From Candidatus Pacearchaeota archaeon (GTDB taxonomy: Archaea; Nanobdellota; Nanobdellia; Pacearchaeales; GW2011-AR1): a stretch of 64,000 bases of DNA. The position numbers and the translations under genes are program-made. Below are positions 8,968 through 24,281 of the stretch, piece by piece. The first letter of the stretch is position 1; each line of letters begins with the position of its first letter. The notes under the pieces are model-generated. The model searched no databases. It was not told the DNA's origin and saw nothing but the letters and a program-made list of their open reading frames with translations. The DNA lies in contig JACPLT010000001.1 of assembly GCA_016186365.1 (NCBI GenBank), positions 13,231 to 77,230 of the forward strand, given 5' to 3'.

Positions 8968-11037
8968 CTACTTCACTAAGAGATAAGACCTTGTTTTTTT
9001 CCCTGCTTTTGCTTGCCTGCCCTCTTTTTTCTCTCCCTCAAATATAAGCTTAATTCTCTTTTTAAACTCTTCGAAGCGTTCAGTTACTATTCTATCTTTT
9101 TTCAATGATTCAAGGTATTTAATTACTCTCTCTTCGGTTATTCCTTGTTTCTGCAGATTATAAAACTCACTGATTCCAAGAGGCCCAAGAATATCAATTA
9201 AAAGTTCCTTAACTTCTTTTTCTATATCTGCTCTTCCTGAAAACAAGATTTTTATTGGTCTCATTTCTCTCACAGGCTCAAGAGGAACAGCAAAGTGGAA
9301 CACCGTGCCAACTCCTTTTTTGCTTTCAAACCATATTTTTCCATTCTGGCTTTCTACAATCCCCTTGCATATTGCTAATCCAAGTCCTGTTCCTCCAAAT
9401 TTTCTTGCATACATCCCTCCTGCTTGGAAAAATGGCTCAAAAATTCTTCCCTGCTCTTCATCAGCAATTCCATCTCCATAATCTTTGACAGTAAAATAAA
9501 TAAAATCTTTCTCTTTTTTAGCATAAACCTCAATTTTGCCATTATCTTTTGAAAATTTAATTGCATTGTTCAATAAATTTCTCAAAACCTGCATAACTCT
9601 GTCAGAATCAACTTCAATAACAGGCAAGCTATCAATATAAGGTTCTATTTTAATCTTCTTTTCAGGCATAAATCCCTTCATTTCCTCAATTGTTCTTTTT
9701 ATTGGTTCATTTAAGCTAGTTTTGACAAACTCAAACTTTAATCTTGCTGCTTCAATTCTTGAAATTTCTAAAAAGTCTTGAATAATCTTGTCTAATCTTT
9801 CTGTATTATTAAGGACAATTTGCAGTGATTCTCTTTGCTCCTTAGTTAGCTTACCAAAATAGTCTCCCAATACCATCTGCAATTGAGCTTTCATAGGAGT
9901 CATAGGACTTCTTAATTCATGTGAAGTTATAGAAAGGAACTCTGTTTTTGCCTTGTCCACCTGTTTTCTCTGCTCATCTGTTTTTTCCATTTGTTCAATT
10001 GTATTATTAAATACATTTCCCAATTCCTCAAACTCATCACCTGTTTTGATATTTGTCCTCGCCTTGAGATTTCCTCTCTCAATCTCTTTTGTTACAATAT
10101 AGAGCTGGTTCAAGGGTCTTAACATGCTCCTTGATAAATAAAAAATAGCAATAGAAAAAACAATAAATACAGATACTAAAACACTAATAAGGGCATATAA
10201 CAGTTTACTAGCAAGAGCAAAGGCTTCTTTTGTAGGAATAGCATATGTTACTATCCAATTATTTCCTTCAAAGTCAAGATATCCTGGCTCTTTTGCAAAA
10301 GCAACAATACTCTCTGTCCCTTCAATAAATTCAACATAGCTCCCAATTTCTTTGCCTTTAGATTTTTCATTTAATTGATTCCACATATGAGAAGTTTCCA
10401 TAAATAAGTCTCCGGAACCATGAGAAGAATATAAAGTGGCCCCTTCTTTATTGAGTAAATCTACATCATTATCTAATACCCCTTTAAGTAAAACATTATT
10501 TATTTTTGTAATAGGAACTCTTGCAACAATAACTCTGAATACATTTCCGTCTTTATCCTTAACAGGTGCTGCAAAATAAATTATAGGAGCTTTTAATTCC
10601 TCTGCGACCCTTATATCTGAGCCAGAGACTATTTTTCCATCTAAAACACCCCTCCAATAACCAATTAACTCATGCTGTTCTCCTATCATCAAGCCAGAAG
10701 TATCAGCTATTCTTGTTCTATTTATATCAAAAAGAGAGATAGAGGCATAACTTTTGTAAAAGTTCCTATATTCAATAAGCCTTTTTGTTATATCTTCAGG
10801 ATTAGAATCATGGTTGGTTATTAAGGAACCAGTAGCCATTACTTGGATATCAGAATACTTTTCATGCATTAATATATCAATTCTAAGCATGATCTCTTGC
10901 GTTTCCATTTCTAATCTATTGGTTATCTCTCTTTCAAGAGAAGCTTTGCTGACTGTATAAATATAAAAAGAAAGAATAACACCAATAAATAAGACGAATA
11001 TTCCAAATAACAGCAATAACTTATGTGAAAATTTCAT
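8968..11037 (-). CDS. sensor histidine kinase (2 TM, extracellular sensor domain, HAMP, HisKA, HATPase_c, C-terminal extension)
   Basis: H-box ITSHELRSPMTPM, N-box LRNLLNNAIKFS, G-boxes DYGDGI and GGTGLGLAICKGIV. Two TM segments flank a roughly 270-aa sensor domain. Confidence 0.85.
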   Translation of the reverse strand: MKFSHKLLLLFGIFVLFIGVILSFYIYTVSKASLEREITNRLEMETQEIMLRIDILMHEKYSDIQVMATGSLITNHDSNPEDITKRLIEYRNFYKSYASISLFDINRTRIADTSGLMIGEQHELIGYWRGVLDGKIVSGSDIRVAEELKAPIIYFAAPVKDKDGNVFRVIVARVPITKINNVLLKGVLDNDVDLLNKEGATLYSSHGSGDLFMETSHMWNQLNEKSKGKEIGSYVEFIEGTESIVAFAKEPGYLDFEGNNWIVTYAIPTKEAFALASKLLYALISVLVSVFIVFSIAIFYLSRSMLRPLNQLYIVTKEIERGNLKARTNIKTGDEFEELGNVFNNTIEQMEKTDEQRKQVDKAKTEFLSITSHELRSPMTPMKAQLQMVLGDYFGKLTKEQRESLQIVLNNTERLDKIIQDFLEISRIEAARLKFEFVKTSLNEPIKRTIEEMKGFMPEKKIKIEPYIDSLPVIEVDSDRVMQVLRNLLNNAIKFSKDNGKIEVYAKKEKDFIYFTVKDYGDGIADEEQGRIFEPFFQAGGMYARKFGGTGLGLAICKGIVESQNGKIWFESKKGVGTVFHFAVPLEPVREMRPIKILFSGRADIEKEVKELLIDILGPLGISEFYNLQKQGITEERVIKYLESLKKDRIVTERFEEFKKRIKLIFEGEKKEGRQAKAGKKTRSYLLVK

Positions 11038-11168
11038 CTATTCTTCCTCGGTTTATCTTTCATCTTCCCTCTTTTATATTTATAAACTAAATCCCTTTAA
11101 ATAGCTTCACTTTGAGTGATGGTCCATCAGCAATTTAAATGTAGCTTGCTTTTGCGGATATCTTCTTA

Positions 11169-12194
11169 TTACTTTGTAATAGAGGTTATAAATTGAGAAT
11201 CAATTATATCATCCAAATTTGTTAGTTTGTTTATCTGCCCCCTATTAAAATAAAATTCTGATATAAACTTTCCACTAGAATACAACTCTCCTTCTGGCGA
11301 TTTGGACATTGCCCTTATATTTTCTGCCAAACTGGGCTGATAAATTCCACTTAATCCTGAAGCTAATTCTTCATTTGTGAAGTTCTCAGCTTTTGCCATT
11401 ATATTTAGTGCCTCTTCCCTATTTGTTTTTTGGAATTCTTTTGCTTCAACCAGCGATTTTACAATTGCTTTTACTTTTTCAGGATTTTCTTCAACAAACA
11501 TAGAATTAAAGAAAAGCCCATCCACGATAATTCCTGGAATGTCTCCTGCTTTTCCTAATTGCTTATATCCCTTTGCCAAAGCAGCTGATTTAGTAGGCTC
11601 CCATGTGTGCCCTGCATCTATCTTCCCGTTTTCTAAAGCACTTAAAACATCATCTGCAGAAACATCTACAAATCGAACATCGGTTTCCTTTAACCCTACC
11701 TTTTCTAAAGAAGCAAGCACAAATATATTGGAAAAGCTATTTATTCCATCAATCCCAACTTTTTTCCCCTTCAAGTCAGAGAGAGAATTAAACTCCTTTC
11801 TTCCTATTATAATATCTCCAGATTCTGAATAATCCGTAATATATACAAATTTAGTCTTTATGCCTTCTGAATAATCTTTAATTGCATCAGAATAAACCTC
11901 AAAAATCCCATCTAACCTTTCATCTTTAAATCTTTCCCTAGACACAAAATAATCTTGATCATATATAAGCTCAACTTTAACTCCATTTTTCTCAAAAAAT
12001 CCTTTCTCCTGTGCAACAAATGCAAAAGCATAACCTGGCCATTGACCAATTGATATTTTTACAGGAGTTTCATCAAGATTTATCTTTGTGCTAGAACTAT
12101 AGTAATAAATCCCCCCCGCTATTGCCAGAACTAAAATTACCCCAATAACTATCCAAATTGCTTTATTCATTTTTCCTCTTTTATAATTAAGCAT
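11169..12194 (-). CDS. periplasmic substrate-binding protein (NMT1/SsuA-like ABC-type SBP)
   Basis: N-terminal signal anchor, then ISIGQWPGYAFAFVAQEKGFFEKNGVKVELI, typical of NMT1/THI5/SsuA-type binding proteins. Heads the SBP-HK-RR operon. Confidence 0.6.
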   Translation of the reverse strand: MLNYKRGKMNKAIWIVIGVILVLAIAGGIYYYSSSTKINLDETPVKISIGQWPGYAFAFVAQEKGFFEKNGVKVELIYDQDYFVSRERFKDERLDGIFEVYSDAIKDYSEGIKTKFVYITDYSESGDIIIGRKEFNSLSDLKGKKVGIDGINSFSNIFVLASLEKVGLKETDVRFVDVSADDVLSALENGKIDAGHTWEPTKSAALAKGYKQLGKAGDIPGIIVDGLFFNSMFVEENPEKVKAIVKSLVEAKEFQKTNREEALNIMAKAENFTNEELASGLSGIYQPSLAENIRAMSKSPEGELYSSGKFISEFYFNRGQINKLTNLDDIIDSQFITSITK

Positions 12195-12253: not shown

Positions 12254-12781
12254 TTAATTATTAGATTTCTGCGCGGTATCAATAACTTTATCGGCATAAG
12301 TTTGCGCTTTCTTTATAATTTGCTGCTGGTCTTCAACATCCAAGACTAAGAAAATTGACCGAAGATTTTCTACAGATTTCATATCATTAATAAGACTTGA
12401 AAAAAACCTTTCAACGATAATATTAGAGTTATATGTTGAAAGATTAGTTATAGAATCAAAAACAATAAAATCAAACTCCTGATTTAATATCTTTTTTATT
12501 GCTAAACTCAGTTCAGTTAAAGAAGAAGGAGACGAAAGAAAATAACATCTATCAGAAGAATTAACTTTTTTCATAGAACCAGAAATAGCATCAAGATAAA
12601 AAAAGTTTTTTTCACTTATTTTTCTATTTTTAAAAAGCTCTTCTATTGCGGGCCAGGTTTTATTATAGCTTATATATAAAACTCTCTTTCCACTTAGGCT
12701 TTTTCCAATATCTGTAGTTACTTTTCCGTAATCTAATGAATGTATTAATACAAGATTTGTTTTGTCAAATTTAAATCCCAT
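12254..12781 (-). CDS. KaiC-like (RecA-fold) protein with degenerate P-loop
   Basis: Walker A position reads HSLDYGKVTT (no Ser/Thr after the Lys). Walker B-like FIVFDSITNL retained. Abuts the upstream receiver gene (stop/start adjacent at 12781/12782). Confidence 0.55.
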   Translation of the reverse strand: MGFKFDKTNLVLIHSLDYGKVTTDIGKSLSGKRVLYISYNKTWPAIEELFKNRKISEKNFFYLDAISGSMKKVNSSDRCYFLSSPSSLTELSLAIKKILNQEFDFIVFDSITNLSTYNSNIIVERFFSSLINDMKSVENLRSIFLVLDVEDQQQIIKKAQTYADKVIDTAQKSNN

Positions 12782-13150
12782 TTATTTTTTCTCCAAAATC
12801 TTATTAACTCTTTTTAATAAATCCGAATTATCAAAGGGCTTTTGAATATAATCAACTATATTTTTGCTAATTTTCAACCCTTCCTTCTCAGCATCACTCA
12901 TTCTCACAACACTTAAAAAAGAAATCTTGACATCTTTAGAAATTTTAGATATCATCTCCCTTACTGGAGTTCCAGGCATCATGATATCCAATAGAATCAA
13001 ATCCGGCTTTTCTTTCTTTAATTTCTTTAAAGCATCATCAGCATCAACACAAAGAATTACCTTATATTTATTTTTCTCAAGAAGAAGTTTCATAGTTCTC
13101 CTTATATCCTCTTCATCATCTACAACCATCACTATTTTTTGTTCCGACAT
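12782..13150 (-). CDS. stand-alone CheY-like receiver
   Basis: IVMVVDDEED...DLILLDIMMPGTP...DYIQKPFD. Confidence 0.85.
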   Translation of the reverse strand: MSEQKIVMVVDDEEDIRRTMKLLLEKNKYKVILCVDADDALKKLKKEKPDLILLDIMMPGTPVREMISKISKDVKISFLSVVRMSDAEKEGLKISKNIVDYIQKPFDNSDLLKRVNKILEKK

Positions 13151-13221
13151 ATTAACTTCCTTTTATTGTTTAACCAACTAATAATCGAGAGTTTATAACC
13201 TCTGAGTATTATCAGATTAGA

Positions 13222-13749
13222 TTATTCTCCCAAATCAATAACCTTATCCACAAACATTCCGCTTTCTTTTATCAAAGCTTCCTGTTCTTTTACTGAAAGA
13301 GCATAAAAAATTGCTTTGGTTTTGCTTTCTTTAATCTTATTAACAAGACTTGCCACAAATTTTGAAACAGGCGCCTTGCTCTGATAAACAAGCAAATTAG
13401 TCAAAGAATCAAATATAATATAATCAAAATTATGCCTGACAAACTTTGAAATAACCAAGGAAATTTCAGTTAATGCTCCGGGAGAAGAGCAATAATAAAC
13501 CCCTTCTGATTGGTCTGGAACATTCTTAATTGTCTTTGAAATAGCATCAACAAAAACAATGCTCTCTGTTTTAATCTTATTTTTCTTAAAAAGTTCAACT
13601 AAAGAATCCTTTGTTTTATTCAAAGTTACATAAGCTATATTACTTTTAGACAATTCTTTGACTATGTCTACTATTTCTTTATTATAGTCTGCACTAGACA
13701 TAATTAAAAGTATTGTCTGGTTATTAGAAAGCTCTTTTTTTATGTTCAT
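13222..13749 (-). CDS. KaiC-like (RecA-fold) protein with degenerate P-loop
   Basis: Paralog of 12254..12781. SSADYNKEIV replaces the P-loop; YIIFDSLTNL retained. Confidence 0.55.
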   Translation of the reverse strand: MNIKKELSNNQTILLIMSSADYNKEIVDIVKELSKSNIAYVTLNKTKDSLVELFKKNKIKTESIVFVDAISKTIKNVPDQSEGVYYCSSPGALTEISLVISKFVRHNFDYIIFDSLTNLLVYQSKAPVSKFVASLVNKIKESKTKAIFYALSVKEQEALIKESGMFVDKVIDLGE

Positions 13750-13751
13750 TT

Positions 13752-14105
13752 CTATGCTCCAACAAATTTTTTTACTTGTTTAACCAAATCATCTATATCA
13801 AATGGCTTTTGTATAAACCCGACAATATTCTTGCTCTTCATCAAGTCGCCTCTTTCAGCTTCCGAAGTTCTTACAACGGAAAGATAAGCTATCTTTGTTC
13901 CTATCATTTTTGGAATTATTTCTCTTACAGGAGTTCCAGGCATCATTATGTCCATTAAAACCAAATCAGGTTTTTGCTTTTGCCATTTTTTTAAAGCGTC
14001 ATCGGCGCTTACTGCTGTAATGACATTATACCCATTTCTTTCCAAAATTGCTTTAACAGTAGTTACATTGTCAGGCTCATCATCCACAATCATTATTGTT
14101 TTCAT
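13752..14105 (-). CDS. stand-alone CheY-like receiver
   Basis: IMIVDDEPD...DLVLMDIMMPGTP...GFIQKPFD. Confidence 0.85.
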   Translation of the reverse strand: MKTIMIVDDEPDNVTTVKAILERNGYNVITAVSADDALKKWQKQKPDLVLMDIMMPGTPVREIIPKMIGTKIAYLSVVRTSEAERGDLMKSKNIVGFIQKPFDIDDLVKQVKKFVGA

Positions 14106-14178
14106 TTTATTCTTCCTAAGCTTTTAAAATGAAAAGCCTGAAAATCTTCAATTTTCTTGATTTTTGCCATATTGATCT

Positions 14179-14526
14179 TTATTTTAAAACCTCCTTGATT
14201 TTTTTCACAAATTCTTTTGGTGAAAATGGCTTTTGTATAAATCCGTCTATATCAGCCATATCAACCTCCGATTTTGGAACAACAGTAACATAAACCATTT
14301 TAACTTTGTGATTCAATTTTTCTCTTAATAATCTCAATAAATCATATCCAGACAAAGTGGGCATCATAATATCAAGTAGAATTAAATCAGGTTTAACTGT
14401 TTTAAGCAAATCAATGGCATATGCCCCATTTTTTGCTGTTGTAACTCCATATTCCTCTTTTTCAAGAATCGTCCTCATAGTTTCCAAAACATCCGCTTCA
14501 TCATCCACAATTAGTATCTTTTTCAT
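14179..14526 (-). CDS. stand-alone CheY-like receiver
   Basis: ILIVDDEAD...DLILLDIMMPTLSG...GFIQKPFS. Confidence 0.85.
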   Translation of the reverse strand: MKKILIVDDEADVLETMRTILEKEEYGVTTAKNGAYAIDLLKTVKPDLILLDIMMPTLSGYDLLRLLREKLNHKVKMVYVTVVPKSEVDMADIDGFIQKPFSPKEFVKKIKEVLK

Positions 14527-14662: not shown

Positions 14663-15683
14663 AGCCTTTGATACTGTCAACTTAAAGGGATAAATATATA
14701 AATCCATGAAATTTTACCTTTGTGAAAGGAGGTAAAATATTATGAAATGTCCTTATTGTAAATCTGAAAATATTTCTAAAAGAGGTAAAAGATTTAATAA
14801 ATCGGAAACAAAACAACTTTATCTTTGTAATAAATGTAAAAGAAAATTTGTTGAACAAAATGGATTTGAAAGAATGAGGTATAATAAAAAACATATTGTT
14901 CGAGCAATTCATCTTCATAATGAAGGGCTTTCACTTTTTCAAGTGAAAGACCATTTATGGCAACATGATGGAATAAAAGTAAGTAGAGAAGCAGTAAGAG
15001 AATGGTGCAATAAGTATAGTATTTTTTTAAAATAGAATAAATGATAATGTTTCTCCAATAATTAAAGGAAATATTCATTATGATGAGAAATATGTTAAAG
15101 TTAATGGTGATGATGCATTTGATTTGAATGCAATAGATAGCAAATCTAAATTTATTCTTGCTCATTTGTTCGTCGAGAAACGAACAAAAAAGAAATGTAT
15201 AGAATTTTTGAAACAAATTAAAGATACATGCTATAATCAAATTCTGACAAAATATTATATTGCAAAATACAATGAGACAAAAAGTAAAAATAAAGTAAAA
15301 TTTGTCTGCGACAAATTTGCAAATTATAAATCCGCATTCAACAAATTGTTTTATAGAATTGCTGAATTGGAATTCGGAGTTCCAATTGCATGTAAAAAAT
15401 ATAATTTTGAGCATAACAATAATCCAATTGAAAGATATAATGGAAAAACAAAAGACAGGATAAAATCAATAAGAAGTGGATTCAAAAATTTTGAAGATGC
15501 AAAATGTTTTATAGATTTAAGAAGAATAATTTACAACTATGTAAATCCTCATCAAGAATTGAAGGGAAAAACTCCTGCTGAAAATGCAGGCATTAATTTG
15601 AAGTTAGAGAGAAATAAGTTGTTGAACCTGATTAAATATGTCAAAGATAACTATGCACCGTTATCTTGACAGTATCTCAGCCT
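14663..15683 (+). mobile_element. IS6-family-like insertion sequence (about 1.0 kb) with 18-bp imperfect terminal inverted repeats
   Basis: agcctttgatactgtcaa at 14663-14680 against the reverse complement of ttgacagtatctcagcct at 15666-15683 (15/18 match, with an 11-bp perfect core GATACTGTCAA). These flank a zinc-finger/HTH ORF plus a DDE ORF. Confidence 0.6.
14742..15669 (+). pseudogene. IS6-type DDE transposase split into two ORFs (14742..15035 and 15124..15669) by a +1 frame break at an A4 run
   Basis: N-terminal part has an MKCPYCKSE...CNKCKRKF zinc ribbon plus HTH. Second frame opens at 15031 with HYDEKYVKVNG...AIDSKSKFILAH...NNPIERYNGKTKDRIKSIRSGFKNFEDAKCFIDLRRIIYNYVNPH (IS6/IS26-like DDE core). 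Removing one A from AAAA at 15029-15032 would fuse the frames. Confidence 0.55.
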
Positions 15684-16661
15684 TTCTTCCAGCACAGGCA
15701 ATTCCTCCTTTATCTCCTGCAACCTTTCTTCATACTTCTTCATTCTTATGTTATAAACTAAACCTGAAATTTTATTTTCTTTAAATCTTTCTGTTTGTGT
15801 TTTCTTCATTAAATCATTCAAAACCCGCTCTTCTGTTTTCATTTTTCTTATCTTGTTTATTAATAATTTTTTCTCATATCTTTTATAGGTGAAATAACCC
15901 ACAATTCCCAAGATAATCAATAAGAGTATTATGTGAATCCAGTATCTTTGGAAAAAGTTCATTGCTCCTTTTTTAATTCCAGATAAAGTTGATAACTGTG
16001 CTTTTTCTTTTTCTAATGCAAGATTAAACTCAGTCAATAAATTTTCACTATCATTGTATCTTTCTTCTGAAAAAGCCAGTTTAGCTTGGATTAAGATATT
16101 GAGAGTTTCATTGGAGATACCTGCAGAGGAAGAGGAAAATAATCCAACACTTTTAAGTTCAGCATTATTATTAAGATTATTATCTTCAACACTTATTTTA
16201 TCTAAAAGCAGATATGCAATCTCTTTCCTGCTCTGAATATCATTAGTATATACTAAAACATCTGCATAATCTATATCTTGCCACTTAACTAATCTTAATG
16301 CGTTCCTTGCATCTGTCTTTTCTTTATCTGTTGAATTATTATCTCGCAATATTTCCGCATATCTTGCCTGTTCAAATACTAGTTTTGCTTCAATTAAACT
16401 ATCATTCATATAAACAACAGAAAAGTTTTTTTCTTGCATTTCTTTAATTATCTGCTCAGAGTCATTTATTGCTTGCAATGCATCTTGTTTTGTGATAATC
16501 TTCTCATTTACAATTTGATTGCTATTACTTTTGAGATCACTATTAGAATCATTATAAACAGCAAATCCAGTAAAATTTGAATTCTGAATATTAAAAATAA
16601 AGAAGGATATTCCTAAGACTAAGAAAATGCTTACAATCATAATAAATATTTGTTGTTTCAT
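15651..16661 (-). CDS. type-I membrane/surface protein (signal peptide, about 200-aa ectodomain, TM, coiled-coil tail); last 10 codons lie inside the IS inverted repeat
   Basis: Ectodomain resembles an internal segment of the adjacent giant protein. C-terminal RLRYCQDNGA* is encoded by the IS right inverted repeat (aggctgagatactgtcaa). Confidence 0.55.
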   Translation of the reverse strand: MKQQIFIMIVSIFLVLGISFFIFNIQNSNFTGFAVYNDSNSDLKSNSNQIVNEKIITKQDALQAINDSEQIIKEMQEKNFSVVYMNDSLIEAKLVFEQARYAEILRDNNSTDKEKTDARNALRLVKWQDIDYADVLVYTNDIQSRKEIAYLLLDKISVEDNNLNNNAELKSVGLFSSSSAGISNETLNILIQAKLAFSEERYNDSENLLTEFNLALEKEKAQLSTLSGIKKGAMNFFQRYWIHIILLLIILGIVGYFTYKRYEKKLLINKIRKMKTEERVLNDLMKKTQTERFKENKISGLVYNIRMKKYEERLQEIKEELPVLEERLRYCQDNGA

Positions 16662-16662
16662 G

Positions 16663-19600
16663 TTATAGTATGTTCATTCTTTTTATTTTTTCTCTTATTT
16701 TAGCTTCCTCTCTTGCTCTTTTATTCTCTCTCATTTTACTAAAATTGTAGAATGGGTATTTTATAAATCCTATAATTTTAAGGAAAAATATTCTAACTCT
16801 TCCTTGTTTTTTAAATTCTTTTTCGGATTTGATAACTGCTCTTTCCAATTCTTTGTTAGTATTTTCAAATTGAATTTTGCCTGATTCATTTTTCTTTAGC
16901 ATCTCAAAAGTTATTCTCTCCCCTTCTATCTCTGCTAATCTCTCGTTCAAAATTTTAAATTCTGTGTTATATTCACTTTCAGATATTTTTCTATCTCTAT
17001 AGAACTGCTCCTGCACCTTTTTAATTTCATTCTCAACCTGAATTCTTTCTATTACTAAATCCTGCAAAATTTGCTGAGGTTTAAGCATTTTTATTCTTTT
17101 ATTTCTTAAGTTTAATCTCTCTTGTTTTATTTTCGCTAATTTGTTTTGATGCTGGCTCATTACTCTATGATACTCTCCAACAGAAATCTTTCCAGAAAAA
17201 TAATTTCTTTGAGCAGACAAGATAAGCCCCCTTATGTTGTCCTCTTCTTTATCAATGTCTTGTATCTTTCCAGTTATTGCAGATTTTTGATAGGTTTTAT
17301 AAGAAAAAATTCCAAACATTGTTAAAAGTACAAATCCTATTAAAACAAAATGCCAGTATAAATACAAGAATAAACCAAAATTGCCTTTTCTTTCAAGCAG
17401 AAGCAAAACCTGTGATGATTTAGCTCTTTCTTCTGCAGTTGCATAATCTCCTCTTTTAAATGCAGCTATTGCCATGTTTAAAACACTTTCAGCAGAATCC
17501 CCACTAAAAATAACTTTTCCAGTTAACATTGAATTAATAGAAACATTATCCCCATTTTCATCAACAATATCCTTTGCTACATTTCCTGTTAATAAATTAG
17601 TTTTTCTTGGATCTTTTAATGCTTCTAAAATTTTATTTATTAACTTATCAACCCCAACCGCTTTGTCTTTTATACTAATAATCTTTTCAGATAAAACCTG
17701 TGCTTCTTTATTTCTGTTTTCAGAAAGTTTATTTTTAGCTTGTTCAAGTAATTTATTAACCTCGTCTGTATTAAATCCAGAATTCGTCATTTCTAAAATC
17801 GCTTTTTCAGCTTCTGCTAAACTTAAATTGCTTTTTTCTTTGCTAACCTCTTGAATAATCAGTTTTATATTCTGGGTTTCTGTATAACTTATTTTTCCAG
17901 TTCCATCTACTTTATACCCCGATATAACTGCTTTCAGTGTATGTTCTTCATAACCTTCTTTGTAAGAAGGAATTTTTAATTTTACTGTGAATTTTTTAGT
18001 TTCTTTTGAATTAATTCTGTCTATTTTACTTGGAGATATGTCAACATACTGTGATGGAAATCCATCTAAAGTCATTGTTAAATCTTCCAAACTTGAATTA
18101 AAATATTTGTTATTTATTTCTATTTCAAAACTGTCCTGCTCTCCTCTTACGATTTCAATTGTTTTTGAATAAACAATTGATTCTCCACCTGCACCTGCCG
18201 TTCCACCACCACCTCCGCCACCACCAGTTCCAGGAGTTGTAATTGTTACTATTAAAGGATCTAAAATATTAATTTGCTTTGTTGCATTGCTAGTTGAATT
18301 CTCATTTGAATTAGACATTGCAGTTATATTGACAGTATTTGACGAAACAGAGCTTAAAACACCAATAACCAAGCTATTTGTAGAAGAAACTCCAATAGGA
18401 AGATTGCCAATATTTCTTGTATAATTTCCATTACTTAGAGAAAATTCAGAAGGCAAACTCCAATTAAGAACAACACCTGTTGCATCACTTGTTCCAAGAT
18501 TCTTTACACTTGCAACTAATTCAACTCCAGATTGTCCTCTTGTTACAGAACTAGAATAAGTATCAATGCTTGCAACAAGATAAGGTCCTGCTGCTGTTTG
18601 AATATAGACTTGCTTTGAATAAGCTTGTGTACCTGCATTAGAATTTATTGTAATACTATAATCATACAAACCTGTAGGAAGACTAACAGAATTAACTTCA
18701 ACAGAAATATTAATTGCATTTCCACTTGAAACACTGTAATTCATAGAAGAATTGCCAGTATAATTAATACTTAATTTTCCATTCAAACTTGTTGATGATA
18801 AAACTATACTAAAATTCAAAGGAGTATCACCAGTATTATTCAAATACAGCAAGCCAAGAGGATTATTATTGGTTTCTTGAGCAAGAGTATATGACTTAAT
18901 ATCAGGAATTGTTGTTGAATTATAAAATCTTGTATCATTCTCAACAACTAAAGTGTAATTTGAAGAAATATTTGAATTTCCAGCAGAATCAGTTGCATTG
19001 ATCTTAAAGTACCATGTTTCATTTCCCAAAGTAATAGAAGCATTATAATTTGTTAATGTTGTATTTGACATTGACAAAGAAGTCCATGAAATTGCAGAAG
19101 AATTTTTATACATCAACTTAACATTTGATATCTGATAATCCTCAACAATATCTGCACTAATATTTACTGTTACTCCAGGATCAAGCTCTGCAGTTGTATT
19201 AGGAGTATAACTTATATTATAAATTTGAGGAAAACTATCATCTGTAATATTTATATTATAACTAGTTGTTAAATTTCCTCTTCCTGATGAATCATATAAA
19301 TAAATCTGGCTATTAAATCCCGGCATGGTTGTGTTTCCTGCTGCAATTATATAACTTAAACTAGAGGAAGTTCCTGATAAGGAAATTTGTGAGGAGTTCT
19401 GCCAAGTTCCTGTTGCATTATAACCAATTATTGCATAACTCAAGCCAACTGCATCAGAAACAGATGCTGAGCAGTTAACATCTTGCGAATTATTAACAGG
19501 ATTTGTGCATGTAAATGAATTCACAGAAGGATTATTCAAATCAACATAAATTATCGTTGATTTGTTTGCTTGATTTTTATTAGTTGAAGAATCATTTGCA

Positions 19601-22600
19601 AAAAAAGTTATATTATGCGCACCTTCTGCCAATGTCAAAGTTTTATTCCAATTTGTTGTTGAAATATTTCCAAGATTATAAATGGTATTTGAATTATTTG
19701 AATATCCTGCCCAACTTAATGCCTCACCTGTTGTTATATTTAATAAAACAGAAGCAGAAGTATAATAAGTGCTATTTATCGGGCTTCTTATTGTTATTGT
19801 TGGAGGAGTAATATCATTAACACTTGTGTCAACTACAAAATTAATAGTATTAGTTCCAAGGTTTCCAGAACTATCAACACCATAAAGGATTAAAGTTTTG
19901 CTTCCATCACTAAAACTAAGTGTTTTGCTCCAGCTTTTCTCGGTTCCTATCAAACTAACATTTGTAACTCCTCCATCGAGTGAATAATTAGCACTTGTTA
20001 AATTTTCATTTGTTGTAATACTTAATAAAATAGAATTTGTTGAATAACTCTGGTTTAATGGAGAATTTATGCTAATAACTGGAGGAGTAACATCATTTAC
20101 AGTAAATGTTGTAGATGTTGAATTTTCATTTAAAGCAGCATCTTTTGCATAAAAAATACAAGCATATCCTCCTTTTTGTACATTAGTCATTGTATAATTT
20201 GCATATCCAGCAGAGTATAAATCAATAGTATGATTAACAAAAGTTCCAGAAGAATTTTCAGCTATTTTTACAGAACCCAAAGCAAAAGTATCATTAACAT
20301 AAGCATTGCAAACAACACTTTGAGTTTCATTTGCAACAGAAGGGCTTGCACTTACATTCAAAAATCTTGGAGCAATTGTATCAACATAAAAAGTTATTGT
20401 AGTGTTCCCTTGATTATTACTAGTATCATTTGCATAAATAATCAAATTATTTGTTGACTCTGTTCCAAGTGAAGAAAGAGTAACATTCCAATTTCTAGTT
20501 GAAGAATTTGACATATTAGTTAAACTTCCAGAATTTAATTTATATCCTGCCCAGACTGTATTTTCATTTGTTGTTATATTTAATCCAACAGTTGTTGAAG
20601 TTTTATAAGATGCATTTGTAATTGTATCAATAGTTATTACAGGAGGAATTGTATCTCCTAATGCAGTATTTACTGAAAAATAAACTCTGGATGAATTTCC
20701 AATATTATTGCTAGAATCATTTGCATAAAAAATAATATTATGACTTCCTTCAGATAAACTTGTCAAGCTTGCATTCCAACTAGTTGAACTAGTATTTCCC
20801 ATACTAACATTTACAGCACTGTCTAATGAATACCAAGTAGAACCTGCAGCTTCAGAGGTTAAAATTGAAATACTGATGTTATCTGTATTGTAAGTTGAAT
20901 TTAAAGGACTAATAATAGTCAAAGTAGGAGAAATTACATCATTTATATTAAATGAAACATTTGTTGAATTTAAATTTCCAACAATATCAGTTGCATAAAA
21001 AATACAATTATAAGTCCCTTTATTTGCAAGTTTTGTTCCTAAAATCAAATAACTTGCAGTTCCAGATGTTCCTGAAAAACTAATTGTATGATTTTCATAG
21101 CTTCCTAAAGAATTTTCTCCAATAATAACACTTGTAATATTAAATCCATCTGTCCAATTAATAGAACATGTTACACTTTGAGATTGATTTGCAGAACTTG
21201 GGCTTGCCCCCGCATTTGAATATCTTGGAGCAAGAGTATCAGCATAAAAAATAATTGTTTTATTATTTTGATTGTTTGATGTGTCATTTACATAAATAGT
21301 TAAATTATTTGTAGATTCTTGAGATAGGCTTAAAGTTGCATACCAATTTGTTGTTGAAGAATTAGTTAAATTTGTTAATGCTCCTGAATTTAATTTATAT
21401 CCTGCCCAACTCAGTGCTTCATCAGTTGTTATATTAAGAAGGGGAGATAATGAATTATAACTTGCATTTGCAGGAGTTAATATTGTAATTGCAGGAGGTG
21501 TTGTATCTGCAGGGGATACAATTGTAAAATATCTAATAGAAGAACTTCCTAAATTATCAAAACTATCATTTGCATAAAAAGTTATATTATGATTTCCAAT
21601 TAATAATCCTGAAATAACTGCTGTCCATTGTTTAGAAGATACATTTGAGAGTGTTACATTTGTAGTAGAATTGCTATCAAGATTATACCATGCACTTGAT
21701 GCAGCTTCAGAAGTTACAATCTCAGTTGTTACAGATGTTTGAGTATAATTTGTGTTTTCTGGGCTAATTATTGTTATACTTGGAGCAGTTGAATCTGTTA
21801 TATAACTTCCTGTTAACGGATTTGCAGATGCAGCCTCTCCAAGAGAATCAAATAAATAAGCATACCAGGTATGTGTTGCAGAATCTATTTCAGAGGCAAA
21901 TCCGCATGATAGATTAACAGTTGCAGTTGCAGAACAATATTGAGTTCCAGTACATCCAGAAGAATTTGCTCCAGAACTGCTGCAAACATATAATTTTAAT
22001 GTCTGAGAATCTGCATCAGAAGAAACACTATTTATTGTTACGGTTGTTCCTCCAAGAATAGTTACAGCATTATCACTTGCTGAAGTTAAAACAGGAAGTT
22101 GATTTAGGTTTATGGTTTTATTTACAATAGTCTGACTATTTCCAACAAAGTCCTGAGAATAATATCTCAGATAATTAACTCCTCTGGTTGTTAAAACTAT
22201 TTGTCCCCCATTATCAATTGAAGTTGTTGGATTGCAGCCCTGACTTGTTGAACTGCAATAATAAGATTTAGGATCAGAATCTACACTATCAGCTTCCGAA
22301 ATAGTAACAGCATAATTTGGTAATTGAATACTTGAAACAGAATTATCACTAGTTGTAGGAGCAGTATAATCTAAATAAAATGAAACATCTAAATTATTAG
22401 AAGCTGTTTGTCCAACTCCCAATGCATTCTGACAAGAAACATATCTTGTTGCAAATCCTTGCGAAGCAACATTATTTACAGAACAATTTGCCTGAGTGTT
22501 AACAACAGGACAAGTATTAGACATAGAAGAATAAGCTAAATCAGAAGAACTCCACCTACAACTCATTCCAGATTCTCCAGAAACAATTATTTCAGTTAAA

Positions 22601-23883
22601 GCATCATTTACAGTATCATAATAACTTGGAGTTGTGTCTCCTGCTACACTTACAATAGAAGTAGTTAAAGTATCTGCGTTTACAGTATAATTAACCTGAA
22701 CAGTAGAAGAATAAGAATTTCCATCATAAACTCGGCAATATTTTGTATAGTTCCCATTTCCACTTTGAGAAGTAAACCCACAAGTTAGAGTATAAGGGGC
22801 TGCTGAAGAAGTTGTCCCTCCAGTACATTTTGTATTTACTGAATCAGGTAATGAAGAATCATCACAATAAAAATAAAGAGTTGCTTGCTCAGTATCACTA
22901 ACGTTATTAGAAGAATTAGCATAAATTGTTATTGCTGTTGAGCCTGCAACAGGATTTGGAAGAATAGTTGCATTAGATATTGCTGGAGGAAAATTAACAT
23001 TAAATGTAACAGAAGAAGAATTTAAATTTCCATAACTATCATTTGCCCAAACTTTAAGAGTATTGCTACCCGAACTAATATTATTTCCAAGAGAAACATT
23101 TGTATTGCAAGTAAAAGTTCTATTAGTTGTCCCAGAATTATTTGACCACCAACAAGCTTGTAAGTTTGTATCAGATATACTGGTGTTTAATGTAAGGGGA
23201 AGACTTGTATAAGTTATATTAGCAGGATAAACTATACTAATTACAGGAGCAACATTATCTACCGTATAGGTAACATTAAAATACAAGTCATCTGCAGTCA
23301 AAGTCTTAGCACCGCCAGTAGTAGAAATGACTTGCAGATAAGCTAGAGCTTTAGTGCCTGAAGAACCAAAAAAGCTATTACAAGTCCAGGATTCTAAAGC
23401 AGTTACATCTGTACAAATTTCTCCAGGATTAGCGCCTGTTCCAGGACAAGTTGCAGAAGCAGTAGTATATGAGGTTCCACCATCAGCATCAACTTTTACA
23501 GTGCAAGTCCCAATCGAAGCAGAAGAAGACCACCATTCATAACATAATTTTACATTTGTAATTCCACCGCAACTTGTTGTACTACTATTATAATTTTGAG
23601 TCCTTATTCCCATATACTGATTATTTCCTGAAACAGTTGCTGTCTGCGTAACTGCATTGTTAGTATCTATACTAGTAGTCGTACATGCACTAGTAAATGT
23701 TTCAGAAGTTGTCTGAGCAACTTCAGTATTACATGCCTGAGAAACTAGAACCGTATTGGGTGAATTTGCACCCGGAAAGGCATAAGTAGCCAAAACAATT
23801 CCAATCATTAATAAAATAATTAATATACTAAGAAAGAATTTTAATCTTACATCAGCTTTTTTATTCTTTAAAAGATTCATCAT
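16663..23883 (-). CDS. giant surface protein (2406 aa): signal anchor, Ser/Thr/Asn-rich ectodomain with tandem repeats, poly-Gly hinge, TM, roughly 290-aa cytoplasmic coiled-coil tail
   Basis: Dozens of N-x-S/T sequons and tandem repeat units of about 130 aa (for example TPPAITILTPANASYNSLSPLLNITTDEALSWAGYKLNSG... and IPPVITIDTITNASYKTSTTVGLNITTNENTVWAGYKLNSG...). Also TGGGGGGGGTAGAGG (about 18185-18240), a TM (GLFLYLYWHFVLIGFVLLTMFGIF) and a charged heptad-like tail. Confidence 0.8.
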   Translation of the reverse strand: MMNLLKNKKADVRLKFFLSILIILLMIGIVLATYAFPGANSPNTVLVSQACNTEVAQTTSETFTSACTTTSIDTNNAVTQTATVSGNNQYMGIRTQNYNSSTTSCGGITNVKLCYEWWSSSASIGTCTVKVDADGGTSYTTASATCPGTGANPGEICTDVTALESWTCNSFFGSSGTKALAYLQVISTTGGAKTLTADDLYFNVTYTVDNVAPVISIVYPANITYTSLPLTLNTSISDTNLQACWWSNNSGTTNRTFTCNTNVSLGNNISSGSNTLKVWANDSYGNLNSSSVTFNVNFPPAISNATILPNPVAGSTAITIYANSSNNVSDTEQATLYFYCDDSSLPDSVNTKCTGGTTSSAAPYTLTCGFTSQSGNGNYTKYCRVYDGNSYSSTVQVNYTVNADTLTTSIVSVAGDTTPSYYDTVNDALTEIIVSGESGMSCRWSSSDLAYSSMSNTCPVVNTQANCSVNNVASQGFATRYVSCQNALGVGQTASNNLDVSFYLDYTAPTTSDNSVSSIQLPNYAVTISEADSVDSDPKSYYCSSTSQGCNPTTSIDNGGQIVLTTRGVNYLRYYSQDFVGNSQTIVNKTINLNQLPVLTSASDNAVTILGGTTVTINSVSSDADSQTLKLYVCSSSGANSSGCTGTQYCSATATVNLSCGFASEIDSATHTWYAYLFDSLGEAASANPLTGSYITDSTAPSITIISPENTNYTQTSVTTEIVTSEAASSAWYNLDSNSTTNVTLSNVSSKQWTAVISGLLIGNHNITFYANDSFDNLGSSSIRYFTIVSPADTTPPAITILTPANASYNSLSPLLNITTDEALSWAGYKLNSGALTNLTNSSTTNWYATLSLSQESTNNLTIYVNDTSNNQNNKTIIFYADTLAPRYSNAGASPSSANQSQSVTCSINWTDGFNITSVIIGENSLGSYENHTISFSGTSGTASYLILGTKLANKGTYNCIFYATDIVGNLNSTNVSFNINDVISPTLTIISPLNSTYNTDNISISILTSEAAGSTWYSLDSAVNVSMGNTSSTSWNASLTSLSEGSHNIIFYANDSSNNIGNSSRVYFSVNTALGDTIPPVITIDTITNASYKTSTTVGLNITTNENTVWAGYKLNSGSLTNMSNSSTRNWNVTLSSLGTESTNNLIIYANDTSNNQGNTTITFYVDTIAPRFLNVSASPSVANETQSVVCNAYVNDTFALGSVKIAENSSGTFVNHTIDLYSAGYANYTMTNVQKGGYACIFYAKDAALNENSTSTTFTVNDVTPPVISINSPLNQSYSTNSILLSITTNENLTSANYSLDGGVTNVSLIGTEKSWSKTLSFSDGSKTLILYGVDSSGNLGTNTINFVVDTSVNDITPPTITIRSPINSTYYTSASVLLNITTGEALSWAGYSNNSNTIYNLGNISTTNWNKTLTLAEGAHNITFFANDSSTNKNQANKSTIIYVDLNNPSVNSFTCTNPVNNSQDVNCSASVSDAVGLSYAIIGYNATGTWQNSSQISLSGTSSSLSYIIAAGNTTMPGFNSQIYLYDSSGRGNLTTSYNINITDDSFPQIYNISYTPNTTAELDPGVTVNISADIVEDYQISNVKLMYKNSSAISWTSLSMSNTTLTNYNASITLGNETWYFKINATDSAGNSNISSNYTLVVENDTRFYNSTTIPDIKSYTLAQETNNNPLGLLYLNNTGDTPLNFSIVLSSTSLNGKLSINYTGNSSMNYSVSSGNAINISVEVNSVSLPTGLYDYSITINSNAGTQAYSKQVYIQTAAGPYLVASIDTYSSSVTRGQSGVELVASVKNLGTSDATGVVLNWSLPSEFSLSNGNYTRNIGNLPIGVSSTNSLVIGVLSSVSSNTVNITAMSNSNENSTSNATKQINILDPLIVTITTPGTGGGGGGGGTAGAGGESIVYSKTIEIVRGEQDSFEIEINNKYFNSSLEDLTMTLDGFPSQYVDISPSKIDRINSKETKKFTVKLKIPSYKEGYEEHTLKAVISGYKVDGTGKISYTETQNIKLIIQEVSKEKSNLSLAEAEKAILEMTNSGFNTDEVNKLLEQAKNKLSENRNKEAQVLSEKIISIKDKAVGVDKLINKILEALKDPRKTNLLTGNVAKDIVDENGDNVSINSMLTGKVIFSGDSAESVLNMAIAAFKRGDYATAEERAKSSQVLLLLERKGNFGLFLYLYWHFVLIGFVLLTMFGIFSYKTYQKSAITGKIQDIDKEEDNIRGLILSAQRNYFSGKISVGEYHRVMSQHQNKLAKIKQERLNLRNKRIKMLKPQQILQDLVIERIQVENEIKKVQEQFYRDRKISESEYNTEFKILNERLAEIEGERITFEMLKKNESGKIQFENTNKELERAVIKSEKEFKKQGRVRIFFLKIIGFIKYPFYNFSKMRENKRAREEAKIREKIKRMNIL

Positions 23884-24281
23884 TTTCTCCCCCCTTTCTT
23901 TAAATCTGATTTCAAAAGTTCTTCTAAATATTCAGAAATATCTTTTCCTATTTGAATAGAATGTATCTTAACTTCTTTCCACAACTCTTCATCTATCTTT
24001 AAACTAGTTGTTTTTCTAACCATGAATTCCTCTTTTTTAATATTATAATATAAAAAGTAGTATTTAAATCTTTATTTATAGTATTTTATAATTATATAAT
24101 ACTATAATACCAATAAACAATATAAAGATTATTCCCTTTCTTTTTTTGTTAATTTTCAAAACCATTTCTAACAGCAAAAAGAATTCCTTAAAATATTGTT
24201 GATACAATTTAAGTGACAGTTGTTTTTCCAATAATAGACTCGCTAATTAATCTTCTTTGGAAAGCATGTTGCAAAAAAATT

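What the first reader, a model, noticed from the sequence alone, without database searches (positions are those of the whole stretch)
15651..23883. 2406-aa surface giant with tandem Ig-like repeats, poly-Gly hinge, TM and long cytoplasmic coiled coil, co-encoded with a small paralogous type-I partner
Architecture: signal anchor; about 2000 aa of Thr/Ser/Asn-rich ectodomain dense in N-glycosylation sequons and containing at least two near-identical roughly 130-aa tandem units (TPPAITILTPANASYNS... and IPPVITIDTITNASYKT...); a GGGGGGGG hinge; a single TM; and about 290 aa of charged heptad-rich cytoplasmic tail. The 336-aa downstream gene shares a roughly 150-aa ectodomain segment and the same TM plus coiled-tail layout. 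A long cytoplasmic tail on an S-layer-like glycoprotein is unusual and suggests outside-in coupling, for example a host-attachment or episymbiont adhesin apparatus.
Basis: partly seen in the sequence, partly recalled or inferred. Interest (0 to 1): 0.6.

Follow-up and report, generated by a model that had tools for sequence, protein, structure and literature searches.

The report
Giant DPANN adhesin with partner anchor
A 2,406-residue sugar-coated surface protein of a tiny Pacearchaeota (DPANN) archaeon is anchored by a conserved membrane-spanning tail module that it shares with a small partner protein; the pair is always encoded together, usually beside a KaiC-type ATPase and response regulators, and looks like an undescribed attachment apparatus that may be wired to the cell interior.

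Summary
The two genes are real and independently assembled. They come from a Candidatus Pacearchaeota MAG.

- **Repeats:** the repeat is a 285-aa super-repeat of three Ig-like domains, present three times at 40-55% identity. It is not near-identical 130-aa units.
- **Hinge:** the poly-Gly run lies 275 aa before the TM, between two CARDB/NEW3-like beta-sandwiches.
- **Tail:** it is 211 aa, not about 290 aa.

The notable part is the last ~520 aa: beta-sandwich, helical bundle, TM, then two conserved helical hairpins.

- This module is a large family (573 clusters at E<=1e-30) that always sits C-terminal to variable heads (Ig-like, LamG, FG-GAP).
- The 336-aa partner is a paralogue of the helical bundle, TM and first hairpin (hhalign 99.3%).
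- The partner follows the giant in 13 of 13 loci.
It sits behind an invariant promoter motif.
- An orthologous KaiC-like ATPase lies nearby in 7 of 13 loci, and 10 of 13 hold a KaiC-like or response-regulator gene.

Best reading: a modular, regulated adhesin on a heteromeric anchor, possibly coupled to signalling. No description was found. The function is inferred.

The parts
24077..24110 (-). Candidate RHH operator. It consists of GTATTATA x2 (24095-24110) and the inverted half-site AATACTATA (24077-24085), just upstream of the TATA-like box.
   Evidence: Read directly from the sequence. The same 8-mer AGTATTAT/ATAATACT recurs around the TATA-like box in L011, L012 and L016. Its function is inferred.
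24057..24071 (-). Conserved promoter motif AGATTTAAATACTAC, with TTTAAATA as a TATA-box-like core. It ends 33 nt upstream of the RHH ATG.
   Evidence: The motif is invariant in four loci from different genomes. It occurs once in the 64-kb window against 0.09 expected by chance.
23880..24023 (-). 47-aa ribbon-helix-helix protein. Its stop codon overlaps the giant's ATG (ATGA).
   Evidence: Pfam gives sub-threshold hits only to RHH families: Omega_Repress 1.9e-4, RH3, CopG_antitoxin, CcdA and RHH_3. PHROGs gives Arc-like repressor. Orthologues lie in the same position in L011, L012 and L016, with E 5e-18 to 7.5e-11.
16663..23883 (-). Giant surface protein, 2406 aa.
23773..23838 (-). N-terminal signal peptide or anchor (aa 16-37), preceded by a +4 n-region. 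TYA|F is a possible signal-peptidase site.
   Evidence: Cleavage is inferred.
21796..23772 (-). Distal head region, aa 38-696. It holds 24 of the protein's 30 Cys and several ~95-aa beta-rich domains, including Ig-like units at aa 209 and 505.
   Evidence: Only 13 homologues were found; several carry precomputed Big_3_3 or Big_13 domains.
19243..21795 (-). Three 285-aa super-repeats (aa 697-981, 982-1263, 1264-1547), each made of three Ig-like domains.
18226..19242 (-). aa 1548-1886: one further Ig-like domain plus beta-sandwich domains. The last of these is CARDB/NEW3-like and ends at the hinge.
   Evidence: The equivalent domain of P0006 hits PF10633 at 36.3 bits, above the 24.4-bit cutoff.
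18202..18225 (-). G8 hinge (aa 1887-1894). A Gly/Ser-rich run at this position is conserved across the family.
17851..18183 (-). Membrane-proximal beta-sandwich (aa 1901-2011).
   Evidence: The AF2 model has pLDDT 80-92 here. Foldseek matches PapD/MSP-type Ig folds at E ~1e-5. PF10633 gives a weak hit.
17389..17841 (-). Helical ecto-bundle (aa 2015-2165). It ends in the invariant AF-RGDY...RA...LLLLERKGN juxtamembrane motif.
17299..17376 (-). Transmembrane helix (aa 2170-2195), carrying the family motif LFLYLYW.
16666..17298 (-). Cytoplasmic tail (aa 2196-2406). It holds two helical hairpins whose turns are YFSGKIS and YRDRKIS, the basic LRNKRIK linker, a K/E-rich stretch and an amphipathic segment IFFLKIIGFIKYPF.
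15651..16661 (-). 336-aa partner: N-terminal anchor, ~210-aa helical ecto-bundle, TM at aa 238-260, and one cytoplasmic hairpin with the turn ENKISG. Its ATG lies 1 nt after the giant's stop codon.
14663..15683 (+). IS6/IS240-type insertion sequence of 1021 bp with 26-nt terminal inverted repeats. It is inserted in the last ~10 codons of the partner gene and separates the operon from the signalling genes.
12254..14526 (-). REC-only response regulators (14179-14526, 13752-14105, 12782-13150) interleaved with two Walker-A-less KaiC-like proteins (13222-13749, 12254-12781).
   Evidence: The same gene order follows the partner in L015.
4301..12194 (-). The rest of the signalling island, in order: NMT1-type binding protein, dCache-HAMP-HisKA-HATPase kinase (8968-11037), REC (8518-8937), a polytopic membrane protein, a dCache-HAMP-PAS sensor, a HAMP protein, and an inactivated KaiC-like protein (4301-4843).
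2801..4261 (-). Hemerythrin-KaiC-like ATPase with the Walker A motif GGAGSGKT. It is the orthologue of the KaiC-like gene found next to the giant in six other loci.

Best explanation
**What it is.** The region is an operon: RHH regulator, giant, partner. It encodes a modular cell-surface adhesin of a Pacearchaeota/Woesearchaeota-type DPANN archaeon.

**How it is built.** The giant is exported through its N-terminal signal and heavily N-glycosylated. It projects a variable, exchangeable ectodomain: here a Cys-rich head plus about 15 Ig-like domains, including three 285-aa super-repeats. A flexible poly-Gly hinge joins this ectodomain to a constant C-terminal module. The module consists of a beta-sandwich, a helical bundle, one TM helix and two cytoplasmic helical hairpins.

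**The partner.** The small partner is a paralogue of the helical bundle, TM and first hairpin. It most likely pairs side by side with the giant's module, so the anchor would be a hetero-oligomer with conserved cytoplasmic hairpins from both chains.

**Coupling and regulation.** Those hairpins most likely dock cytoplasmic factors. The best candidates are the KaiC-like ATPase, the inactivated KaiC-like proteins and the REC proteins encoded beside the operon. This would couple attachment to signalling, or let signalling control the adhesin. The RHH protein probably autoregulates the operon through AGTATTAT-type repeats around a conserved TATA-like box.

**Shown:** the architecture, the family, the paralogy, the gene linkage and the promoter conservation.
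**Inferred:** the topology, the heteromer, the adhesive function, tail docking and autoregulation.
For: **The module is a real, large family**
- 19 close homologues share 43-65% identity.
- A profile search finds 573 clusters at E<=1e-30.
- Among the 150 best hits listed, the module lies at or near the C-terminal end of proteins of up to 5086 aa.

**The heads are exchangeable**
- LamG heads occur in L011 and L014, FG-GAP plus Big domains in L012, and Ig-like domains here.
- L014 shares 63% identity over the C-terminal 1180 aa but has a different N-terminus.
- Super-repeat copy number is 0, 1, 3 or 5 among relatives.

**The partner**
- hhalign between the partner and module families gives 99.3% probability and E 2.7e-20 over 242 columns.
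- The partner lies directly downstream in 13 of 13 distinct loci, with abutting or overlapping stop and start codons.

**The tail is conserved**
- Mean column identity is 58%, with invariant Q, Y, R, L, E and N positions.

**Topology**
- Sequons number 104 against 64 +/- 6.7 expected in the ectodomain, and 2 against 1.0 in the tail.
- Charge bias around the hydrophobic segments agrees.

**Signalling linkage**
- The KaiC-like orthologue (E 1e-70 to 1e-132) is adjacent in the window, L003, L005, L012, L013, L014 and L016.
- Response regulators, inactivated KaiC-like proteins or a kinase are adjacent in L001, L007, L015 and the window.
- The few complete DPANN genomes censused carry almost no two-component genes (PMC5847659).

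**RHH and promoter**

**Background**
- Large DPANN surface proteins with PKD, propeller or LamG domains fused to CARDB modules have been proposed to mediate host contact (PMC5498576).
Against: - There is no experimental or expression evidence of any kind.
- Topology rests on simple rules, not on a dedicated predictor.
- The giant's own TM flanks are nearly charge-neutral: 3 K/R before and 2 after.
- No multimer model or co-variation test supports the heteromer.
- In this window an IS separates the operon from the response regulators, and the KaiC-like ATPase lies ~11 kb away.
- L001 and L011 have no KaiC-like gene within the fetched flanks.
- One partner homologue (P0122) has no giant upstream.
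- Every Ig-like and RHH assignment in this protein itself is below the Pfam thresholds.
Confidence: 0.5

Rival explanations
1. It is the main envelope (S-layer or sheath) glycoprotein of these archaea. The partner would act as a SlaB-like membrane stalk. The cytoplasmic tails would only stabilise the anchor or organise the lattice from inside.
For: - The giant is a huge N-glycosylated protein with a C-terminal TM anchor.
- A large protein followed by a small membrane partner recalls slaA-slaB (my own knowledge).
- An STT3 oligosaccharyltransferase gene lies near the locus in L003.
- A signal peptidase gene lies 2 kb upstream in the window.
Against: - Ectodomain architecture and length vary widely between close relatives, from 650 to more than 5000 aa, with Ig-like, LamG or FG-GAP heads. 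That is unusual for a lattice-forming protein.
- No match to any S-layer family was found in Pfam or NCBIfam.
- A dedicated RHH regulator and the signalling neighbours suggest conditional expression.
- A 211-aa conserved cytoplasmic tail is not a feature of known S-layer proteins (my own knowledge).
Confidence: 0.2
2. It is a passive adhesin anchor with no signalling role. The tail hairpins and the partner would serve only oligomerisation and membrane retention. The proximity to KaiC and two-component genes would reflect shared regulation of expression, or mere synteny within one lineage.
For: - All loci come from a single lineage, Woese-/Pacearchaeota, so synteny could be inherited.
- Gene order and distance to the KaiC-like gene vary: upstream, downstream, or 11 kb away.
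- The tail ends in a basic, amphipathic segment suited to lying on the membrane.
Against: - The linkage survives although the proteins have diverged to 40-50% identity and the flanking housekeeping genes all differ between loci.
- The tail is more conserved than the ectodomain. That is hard to explain for a mere spacer.
Confidence: 0.2
3. The tails are CdvA-like. They would polymerise on the inner membrane face, or recruit ESCRT-III/Vps4-type machinery, so that the adhesin marks a site of membrane remodelling such as a host contact, a bridge or vesicle formation.
For: - The Pfam CdvA-like coiled-coil model PF18822 matches the first tail hairpin in 12 of 20 family members (best E 2.2e-6, 26.6 bits).
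- It matches none of 8 reversed-sequence controls.
Against: - All hits fall below the 30-bit gathering score.
- Pfam reports no PRC barrel on the giant or the partner.
- NCBIfam gives no CdvA hit.
- No ESCRT-III gene turned up among the Pfam-annotated genes of the window or the fetched loci. Not every window ORF was scanned.
- Helical hairpins are easy to over-match.
Confidence: 0.07

Closest known systems
Large DPANN surface proteins with adhesion domains fused to CARDB-like modules, as in 'ARMAN' Mia14 (Golyshina et al. 2017, PMC5498576), and the SPEARE protein of Nanohaloarchaeum antarcticus (PMC6642349; listed but not read)
   Same: - Both are very large, lineage-variable, secreted or anchored proteins of host-dependent DPANN archaea.
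- Both are built from Ig/PKD, LamG or propeller domains plus CARDB-type beta-sandwiches.
- Both are proposed to mediate cell-cell contact.
   Different: As far as I could find, those descriptions do not include the constant C-terminal module (helical bundle, TM, conserved cytoplasmic hairpins), the paralogous partner, the RHH gene or the KaiC/REC neighbourhood.
Sulfolobales S-layer pair SlaA/SlaB, and tetrabrachion of Staphylothermus (my own knowledge)
   Same: - A large glycoprotein and a small membrane-anchored helical partner are encoded side by side.
- The anchor is a C-terminal TM.
- The stalk is helical or coiled-coil.
   Different: - Here both proteins carry a TM, and they are paralogous in the anchor region.
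- The helical bundle is short.
- Long conserved tails lie in the cytoplasm.
- No sequence similarity was found.
Integrin alpha/beta heterodimers (my own knowledge)
   Same: - Both involve two type-I membrane proteins, with a large ectodomain of Ig-like domains. The orthologue in L012 also has FG-GAP repeats.
- Each chain has a single TM.
- The cytoplasmic tails are proposed to couple adhesion to intracellular factors.
   Different: - The resemblance is analogy only; no homology was detected.
- In integrins the two chains are not paralogous in the anchor.
- The tails here are helical hairpins with their own conserved motifs.
- Heterodimerisation is not shown.
CdvA (Pfam PF18822, CdvA-like coiled-coil domain)
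   Same: The model gives recurrent, direction-specific but sub-threshold matches to the first cytoplasmic hairpin.
   Different: - All hits are below the gathering score.
- There is no PRC barrel.
- This protein is an integral membrane protein with a huge ectodomain, whereas CdvA is a soluble membrane-binding protein (my own knowledge).
Archaeal KaiC-like ATPase signalling hubs (Makarova, Galperin and Koonin 2017, as cited and summarised in PMC5847659)
   Same: The neighbourhood combines an active KaiC-like ATPase (here fused to hemerythrin), inactivated KaiC-like proteins, REC-only regulators and sensor kinases.
   Different: I could not find a reported link between such hubs and a giant surface protein with a partner. 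The original paper was not available to me.

Membership tests
Bacterial/archaeal Ig-like (Big_*, E-set) repeat proteins | Repeat units match a Big/Ig-like Pfam model at or above its gathering score | tested here: inconclusive
   - The 11 repeat units hit only Ig-like families (Big_13, Big_7, Big_3_5, Big_12, Big_5, HYR, Cadherin-like, DUF4625). All hits are sub-threshold, with best E 0.002.
- Homologues of the head carry precomputed PF13750 and PF19077.
- The repeats themselves were not modelled.
CARDB / NPCBM_assoc (NEW3) beta-sandwich, PF10633 | Match to PF10633 above 24.4 bits, and a beta-sandwich fold | tested here: inconclusive
   - This protein scores 16.6 bits.
- Homologue P0006 scores 36.3 bits for the domain just before the hinge.
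- AF2 gives a confident beta-sandwich after the hinge, with Ig-type Foldseek hits.
CdvA | CdvA-like coiled-coil domain (PF18822) at or above the 30-bit gathering score | tested here: not met
   The best score is 26.6 bits. The model hits 12 of 20 tails and 0 of 8 reversed controls.
CdvA | N-terminal PRC-barrel domain | tested here: not met
   Pfam reports no PRC domain in the giant or the partner.
CdvA | C-terminal ESCRT-III-binding (E3B) peptide and a neighbouring cdvB/cdvC gene | not tested
   - No ESCRT-III or Vps4 gene was seen among the annotated neighbours.
- The genomes were not surveyed.
Archaeal S-layer glycoproteins | Sequence match to a known S-layer family | tested here: not met
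   Pfam, NCBIfam and PDB sequence searches gave no S-layer family hit.
Archaeal S-layer glycoproteins | Forms a regular lattice covering the cell | not testable with these tools
   This needs microscopy or proteomics.
Archaeal S-layer glycoproteins | N-glycosylated ectodomain with a C-terminal membrane anchor | tested here: met
   - Sequons are enriched: 104 against 64 +/- 6.7 expected.
- The TM lies at aa 2170-2195.
- Glycosylation itself is inferred.
Integrins | Sequence homology to integrin alpha or beta subunits (FG-GAP propeller, beta-I domain) | tested here: not met
   - Pfam finds no integrin domain in this protein.
- FG-GAP_3 repeats occur only in the L012 orthologue.
Integrins | Non-covalent heterodimer of two type-I membrane proteins | not testable with these tools
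   - Strict co-encoding in 13 of 13 loci and the paralogy make a heteromer plausible.
- No multimer prediction tool was available.
Ribbon-helix-helix (Arc/MetJ/CopG) regulators | Match to an RHH family model, with a beta-alpha-alpha pattern | tested here: inconclusive
   - Every Pfam hit is to an RHH family, but all are sub-threshold: Omega_Repress 22.1 bits against a 33.3-bit cutoff, and RHH_3 12.8 bits against 21.6.
- PHROGs gives Arc-like repressor at E 0.003.
- The orthologue in L016 is flagged 56B_RHH (weak).
KaiC-like ATPases, PF06745 | Match above the gathering score plus a Walker A motif | tested here: met
   - Window 2801-4261 scores 180.1 bits against a 26.6-bit cutoff and has GGAGSGKT.
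- The three ~175-aa relatives lack Walker A.
Type IV pilins / archaeal class-III signal peptide proteins | Short basic leader ending in G/A, followed by a hydrophobic helix; pilin fold | tested here: not met
   - The N-termini MMNLLKNKKADVRLKFF... and MKQQIFIM... show no such site.
- The partner model is an all-helical bundle with no PDB match.

The most novel reading that the evidence does not exclude
The giant and its partner form a prokaryotic, integrin-like adhesion receptor.
- It would be a heteromer of two single-pass proteins.
- Its conserved cytoplasmic hairpins would bind the neighbouring KaiC-like ATPase, the inactivated KaiC-like proteins or the REC proteins.
- Contact with a host cell would then be reported to the cytoplasm, or ATP-driven signalling would switch the adhesin on.
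- That would be a dedicated attachment-sensing pathway in the Woesearchaeota/Pacearchaeota lineage, whose members are presumed to depend on hosts.
Probability: 0.2. Interest if true: 0.85.

Novelty: new variant of a known kind. Interest (0 to 1): 0.6.

Why it matters
**The open question.** Woesearchaeota and Pacearchaeota are abundant and uncultured, and they are presumed to depend on hosts. How they recognise and hold on to partners is unknown.

**What this locus offers.**
- It defines a concrete, widespread candidate apparatus: 573 clusters for the anchor module and more than 200 for the partner.
- It has a clear modular logic, with exchangeable heads on a constant heteromeric anchor.
- It is physically linked to the few signalling genes seen in these loci.
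- It gives testable parts:
  - a 47-aa regulator with a conserved operator-like promoter;
  - two tails with invariant motifs;
  - a neighbouring KaiC-like ATPase.

**If the coupling is real.** It would be a rare example of transmembrane adhesion signalling by single-pass receptors in archaea. It would also give the poorly understood archaeal KaiC-like 'hubs' a new output or input.

Tried and rejected
- **SHOCT domain.** By eye, the turn motif G-K-I-S-x-x-E-Y looked like SHOCT. Pfam scans at E<=10 never reported SHOCT, so I dropped the idea.
- **Pilin or class-III signal peptide.** Not present.
- **PDB sequence searches.** I searched with the whole giant, the tail profile and the repeat profile. 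Only poly-Gly linker artefacts and noise came back.
- **Foldseek against PDB.**
  - The module matches only generic Ig-type beta-sandwiches such as PapD and MSP.
  - The partner matches nothing below E 0.09.
- **Defence-island or phage origin.** PADLOC and PHROGs gave nothing relevant.
- **Recent DNA tandem duplication.** TRF found none.
- **NCBIfam on the tails.** Only scattered coiled-coil noise.
- **Literature.**
  - No paper was found that describes this module, the partner or their linkage.
  - The Makarova 2017 KaiC paper is not held.
- **Genome scan.** The genome-contig scan used one narrow TM pattern and returned only 6 loci. It cannot be used to estimate prevalence.

Full report
**Origin and reality of the genes**

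The window has ~31% G+C. It encodes archaeal markers: a Cdc48 with an intein, a family-B DNA polymerase and TFS. The 336-aa protein is 100% identical to 'hypothetical protein HYW76_00210 [Candidatus Pacearchaeota archaeon]'. Two independent Logan assemblies reproduce genes of 47, 2406 and 336 aa in the same order. The giant ORF is therefore not an assembly artefact.

**Checking the observation**

The giant (16663..23883, minus strand) has the following features.
- An N-terminal hydrophobic segment lies at aa ~16-37, after a +4 charged start.
- There is a single further TM at aa 2170-2195.
- A G8 run lies at aa 1887-1894.
- There are 106 N-x-S/T sequons in total.
- Sequons are enriched in the ectodomain: 104 against 64 +/- 6.7 in composition-preserving shuffles. 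They are not enriched in the tail: 2 against 1.0.
- 24 of the 30 cysteines lie in the first 660 aa.

Three details of the finding are wrong.
- **Repeats.** Tiling BLAST and an HMM built from the repeats show a 285-aa super-repeat, present three times (aa 697-981, 982-1263, 1264-1547).
  - Each copy is made of three ~95-aa domains that start with D-x-T-x-P-x-I.
  - The copies are 54.5, 42.6 and 40.0% identical, with ~60% over the best 120 aa.
  - TRF finds no tandem repeat in the DNA.
- **Hinge.** The poly-Gly run is 275 aa away from the TM.
- **Tail.** It is 211 aa long.

The domains hit only Ig-like Pfam families, all below threshold. Homologues of the head carry Big_3_3 and Big_13.

**The constant C-terminal module**

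Searching with aa 1881-2406 returned 19 proteins at 43-65% identity. A profile search of 1.84 billion representatives found 1846 hits at E<=1e-3 and 573 at E<=1e-30. The 150 best range up to 5086 aa, with the module at or near the C-terminal end.

The alignment shows these conserved elements, in order:
- a CARDB/NEW3-like beta-sandwich;
- a Gly/Ser-rich hinge;
- a second beta-sandwich;
- a helical region ending in AF-RGDY..A..RA...LLLLERKGN;
- a TM beginning LFLYLYW;
- a tail with two copies of (F/Y)-x-x-x-K-I-S-x-x-E-Y, separated by LRNKRIK.

AlphaFold2 (20 sequences, mean pLDDT 76.8) gives the following, in model numbering:
- a beta-sandwich at residues 21-131;
- a helical bundle at 135-285;
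- a TM helix that continues into the cytoplasm;
- two helix-turn-helix hairpins whose turns are the K-I-S motifs.

Foldseek matched only the beta-sandwich, to PapD/MSP-type Ig folds. Tail-only alignments have 58% mean column identity. That is higher than the ~50% identity of the ectodomain between orthologues.

**The partner**

BLASTP aligns partner residues 184-320 with giant residues 2113-2255 at 26% identity, E 2e-7. The partner family has more than 210 members. hhalign between the partner and module families gives 99.3% probability and E 2.7e-20 over 242 columns. The match covers the whole helical ectodomain, the TM and the first hairpin.

The AF2 model of the partner (64 sequences, pLDDT 86.9) is an all-helical bundle, a TM and one hairpin. 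It has no PDB match below E 0.09. The shared domain is therefore not a known ordinary fold.

**Gene context**

In 13 of 13 distinct loci that carry the module, the partner gene follows directly. Stop and start codons overlap or abut.

A 47-aa ORF (23880-24023) overlaps the giant's ATG. It is conserved in L011, L012 and L016. It matches only RHH or Arc-like families, all sub-threshold. L014 has a DUF7557 gene and L013 an 80-aa ORF in the same place.

Upstream of the RHH gene, the 15-mer AGATTTAAATA(A/C)TAC is invariant in four genomes and unique in the window. It is flanked by AGTATTAT/ATAATACT repeats. This looks like a TATA-box promoter with an operator.

Downstream of an IS (see below), the window carries, in order:
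- three REC-only regulators interleaved with two Walker-A-less KaiC-like proteins;
- a binding protein;
- a dCache-HAMP histidine kinase;
- another REC;
- further dCache/HAMP/PAS sensors;
- a third inactivated KaiC-like protein;
- a hemerythrin-KaiC ATPase with an intact Walker A.

L015 has the same order directly after its partner gene. The KaiC-like orthologue is adjacent to the giant or the partner in L003, L005, L012, L013, L014 and L016. The surrounding housekeeping genes differ from locus to locus, so the linkage is not just frozen synteny. The few complete DPANN genomes censused in 2018 carry almost no two-component genes (PMC5847659), which makes the clustering more striking.

**Comparative anatomy**

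Orthologues in L005, L012 and L016 are collinear with the giant over aa ~290-2403 at ~52% identity and have three super-repeats. L015 has five and L014 has one, plus LamG domains. L013, L011 and L003 have none. Heads are exchanged and repeats expand or contract in 285-aa steps, while the anchor stays constant.

**Interpretation**

The best-supported reading is a regulated, modular surface adhesin on a heteromeric anchor.
- **Shown:** the architecture, the family, the paralogy, the linkage and the promoter conservation.
- **Inferred:**
  - cleavage of the signal peptide;
  - glycosylation;
  - side-by-side pairing of giant and partner;
  - adhesion to a host or substrate;
  - docking of KaiC or REC proteins on the tails;
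  - autoregulation by the RHH protein.

The CdvA-like signal is intriguing. PF18822 hits 12 of 20 tails and 0 of 8 reversed controls. All hits are below the curated threshold, however, and Pfam reports no PRC barrel. I keep it as a low-probability rival. An S-layer role and a purely passive anchor cannot be excluded.

**Comparison with the known**

The general kind is known: giant DPANN surface proteins with adhesion domains and CARDB modules (PMC5498576). I found no description of the constant TM/tail module, its paralogous partner, the RHH gene or the KaiC/REC linkage. All database names are 'hypothetical protein'. I therefore rate it a new variant of a known kind, of moderate to high interest.

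Noticed in passing
window 14663-15683 (+): An IS6/IS240-type insertion sequence lies here. It has a 97-aa zinc-ribbon ORF, a 181-aa DDE transposase and 26-nt terminal inverted repeats. It is inserted into the last ~10 codons of the partner gene, so the partner's C-terminal residues (about RYCQDNGA) are IS-encoded. It also cuts the operon off from the response-regulator cluster. One Logan contig ends 6 nt after the partner gene and the other within the transposase gene. A related IS with 67.6% nucleotide identity sits 2 kb from the homologous locus in a Woesearchaeota genome (L003 5450-6079).
   Followed up: partly
window 28328-32374 (+): A Cdc48/VCP-type AAA ATPase is interrupted by an intein that carries a LAGLIDADG homing endonuclease. 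L013 also shows an intein-containing GyrB.
   Followed up: no
P0002, P0006, P0007, P0009 (C-termini; alignment A1 columns ~1140-1186): Some family members extend the cytoplasmic tail with an extra small conserved domain, G-V-V-L-I-D-N-x-I-I-E-x-L-K...G-K-W-I-K-L-N-F-K. The window protein lacks it, and its nature is unknown.
   Followed up: no
L015 17642-20900: Near the homologous locus lies a protein of more than 1100 aa made of at least eight tandem hemerythrin-like domains. This is an unusual architecture next to the same signalling island.
   Followed up: no
L011 13399-20948: A second giant gene (more than 2129 aa), preceded by a 616-aa gene, lies 3 kb downstream of the giant-partner pair. 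It does not carry the anchor module. This genome therefore has several kinds of giant surface proteins.
   Followed up: no
L005 3063-3120 and L001 9956-10921: The L005 orthologue of the giant loses its N-terminal ~290 aa to an in-frame stop. The L001, L002 and L008 partner is split into two ORFs (190 and 127 aa). These could be pseudogenisation, programmed variation or MAG errors.
   Followed up: no
window 24439-24897 (-) and 27253-27600 (+): Two small proteins each combine an N-terminal Cys-rich zinc-ribbon-like segment with a C-terminal AbrB/SpoVT-like motif (judged by eye). They flank the region upstream of the operon and are possibly further small regulators.
   Followed up: no
giant aa 2287-2312 (window ~16948-17025): The second tail hairpin turn (QEQFYRDRKISESEYNTEFKILNERL) matches a 65-aa phage protein family of unknown function, phrog_712, at E 6e-5. 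The K-I-S-x-x-E-Y hairpin may therefore be a more widespread small motif.
   Followed up: no
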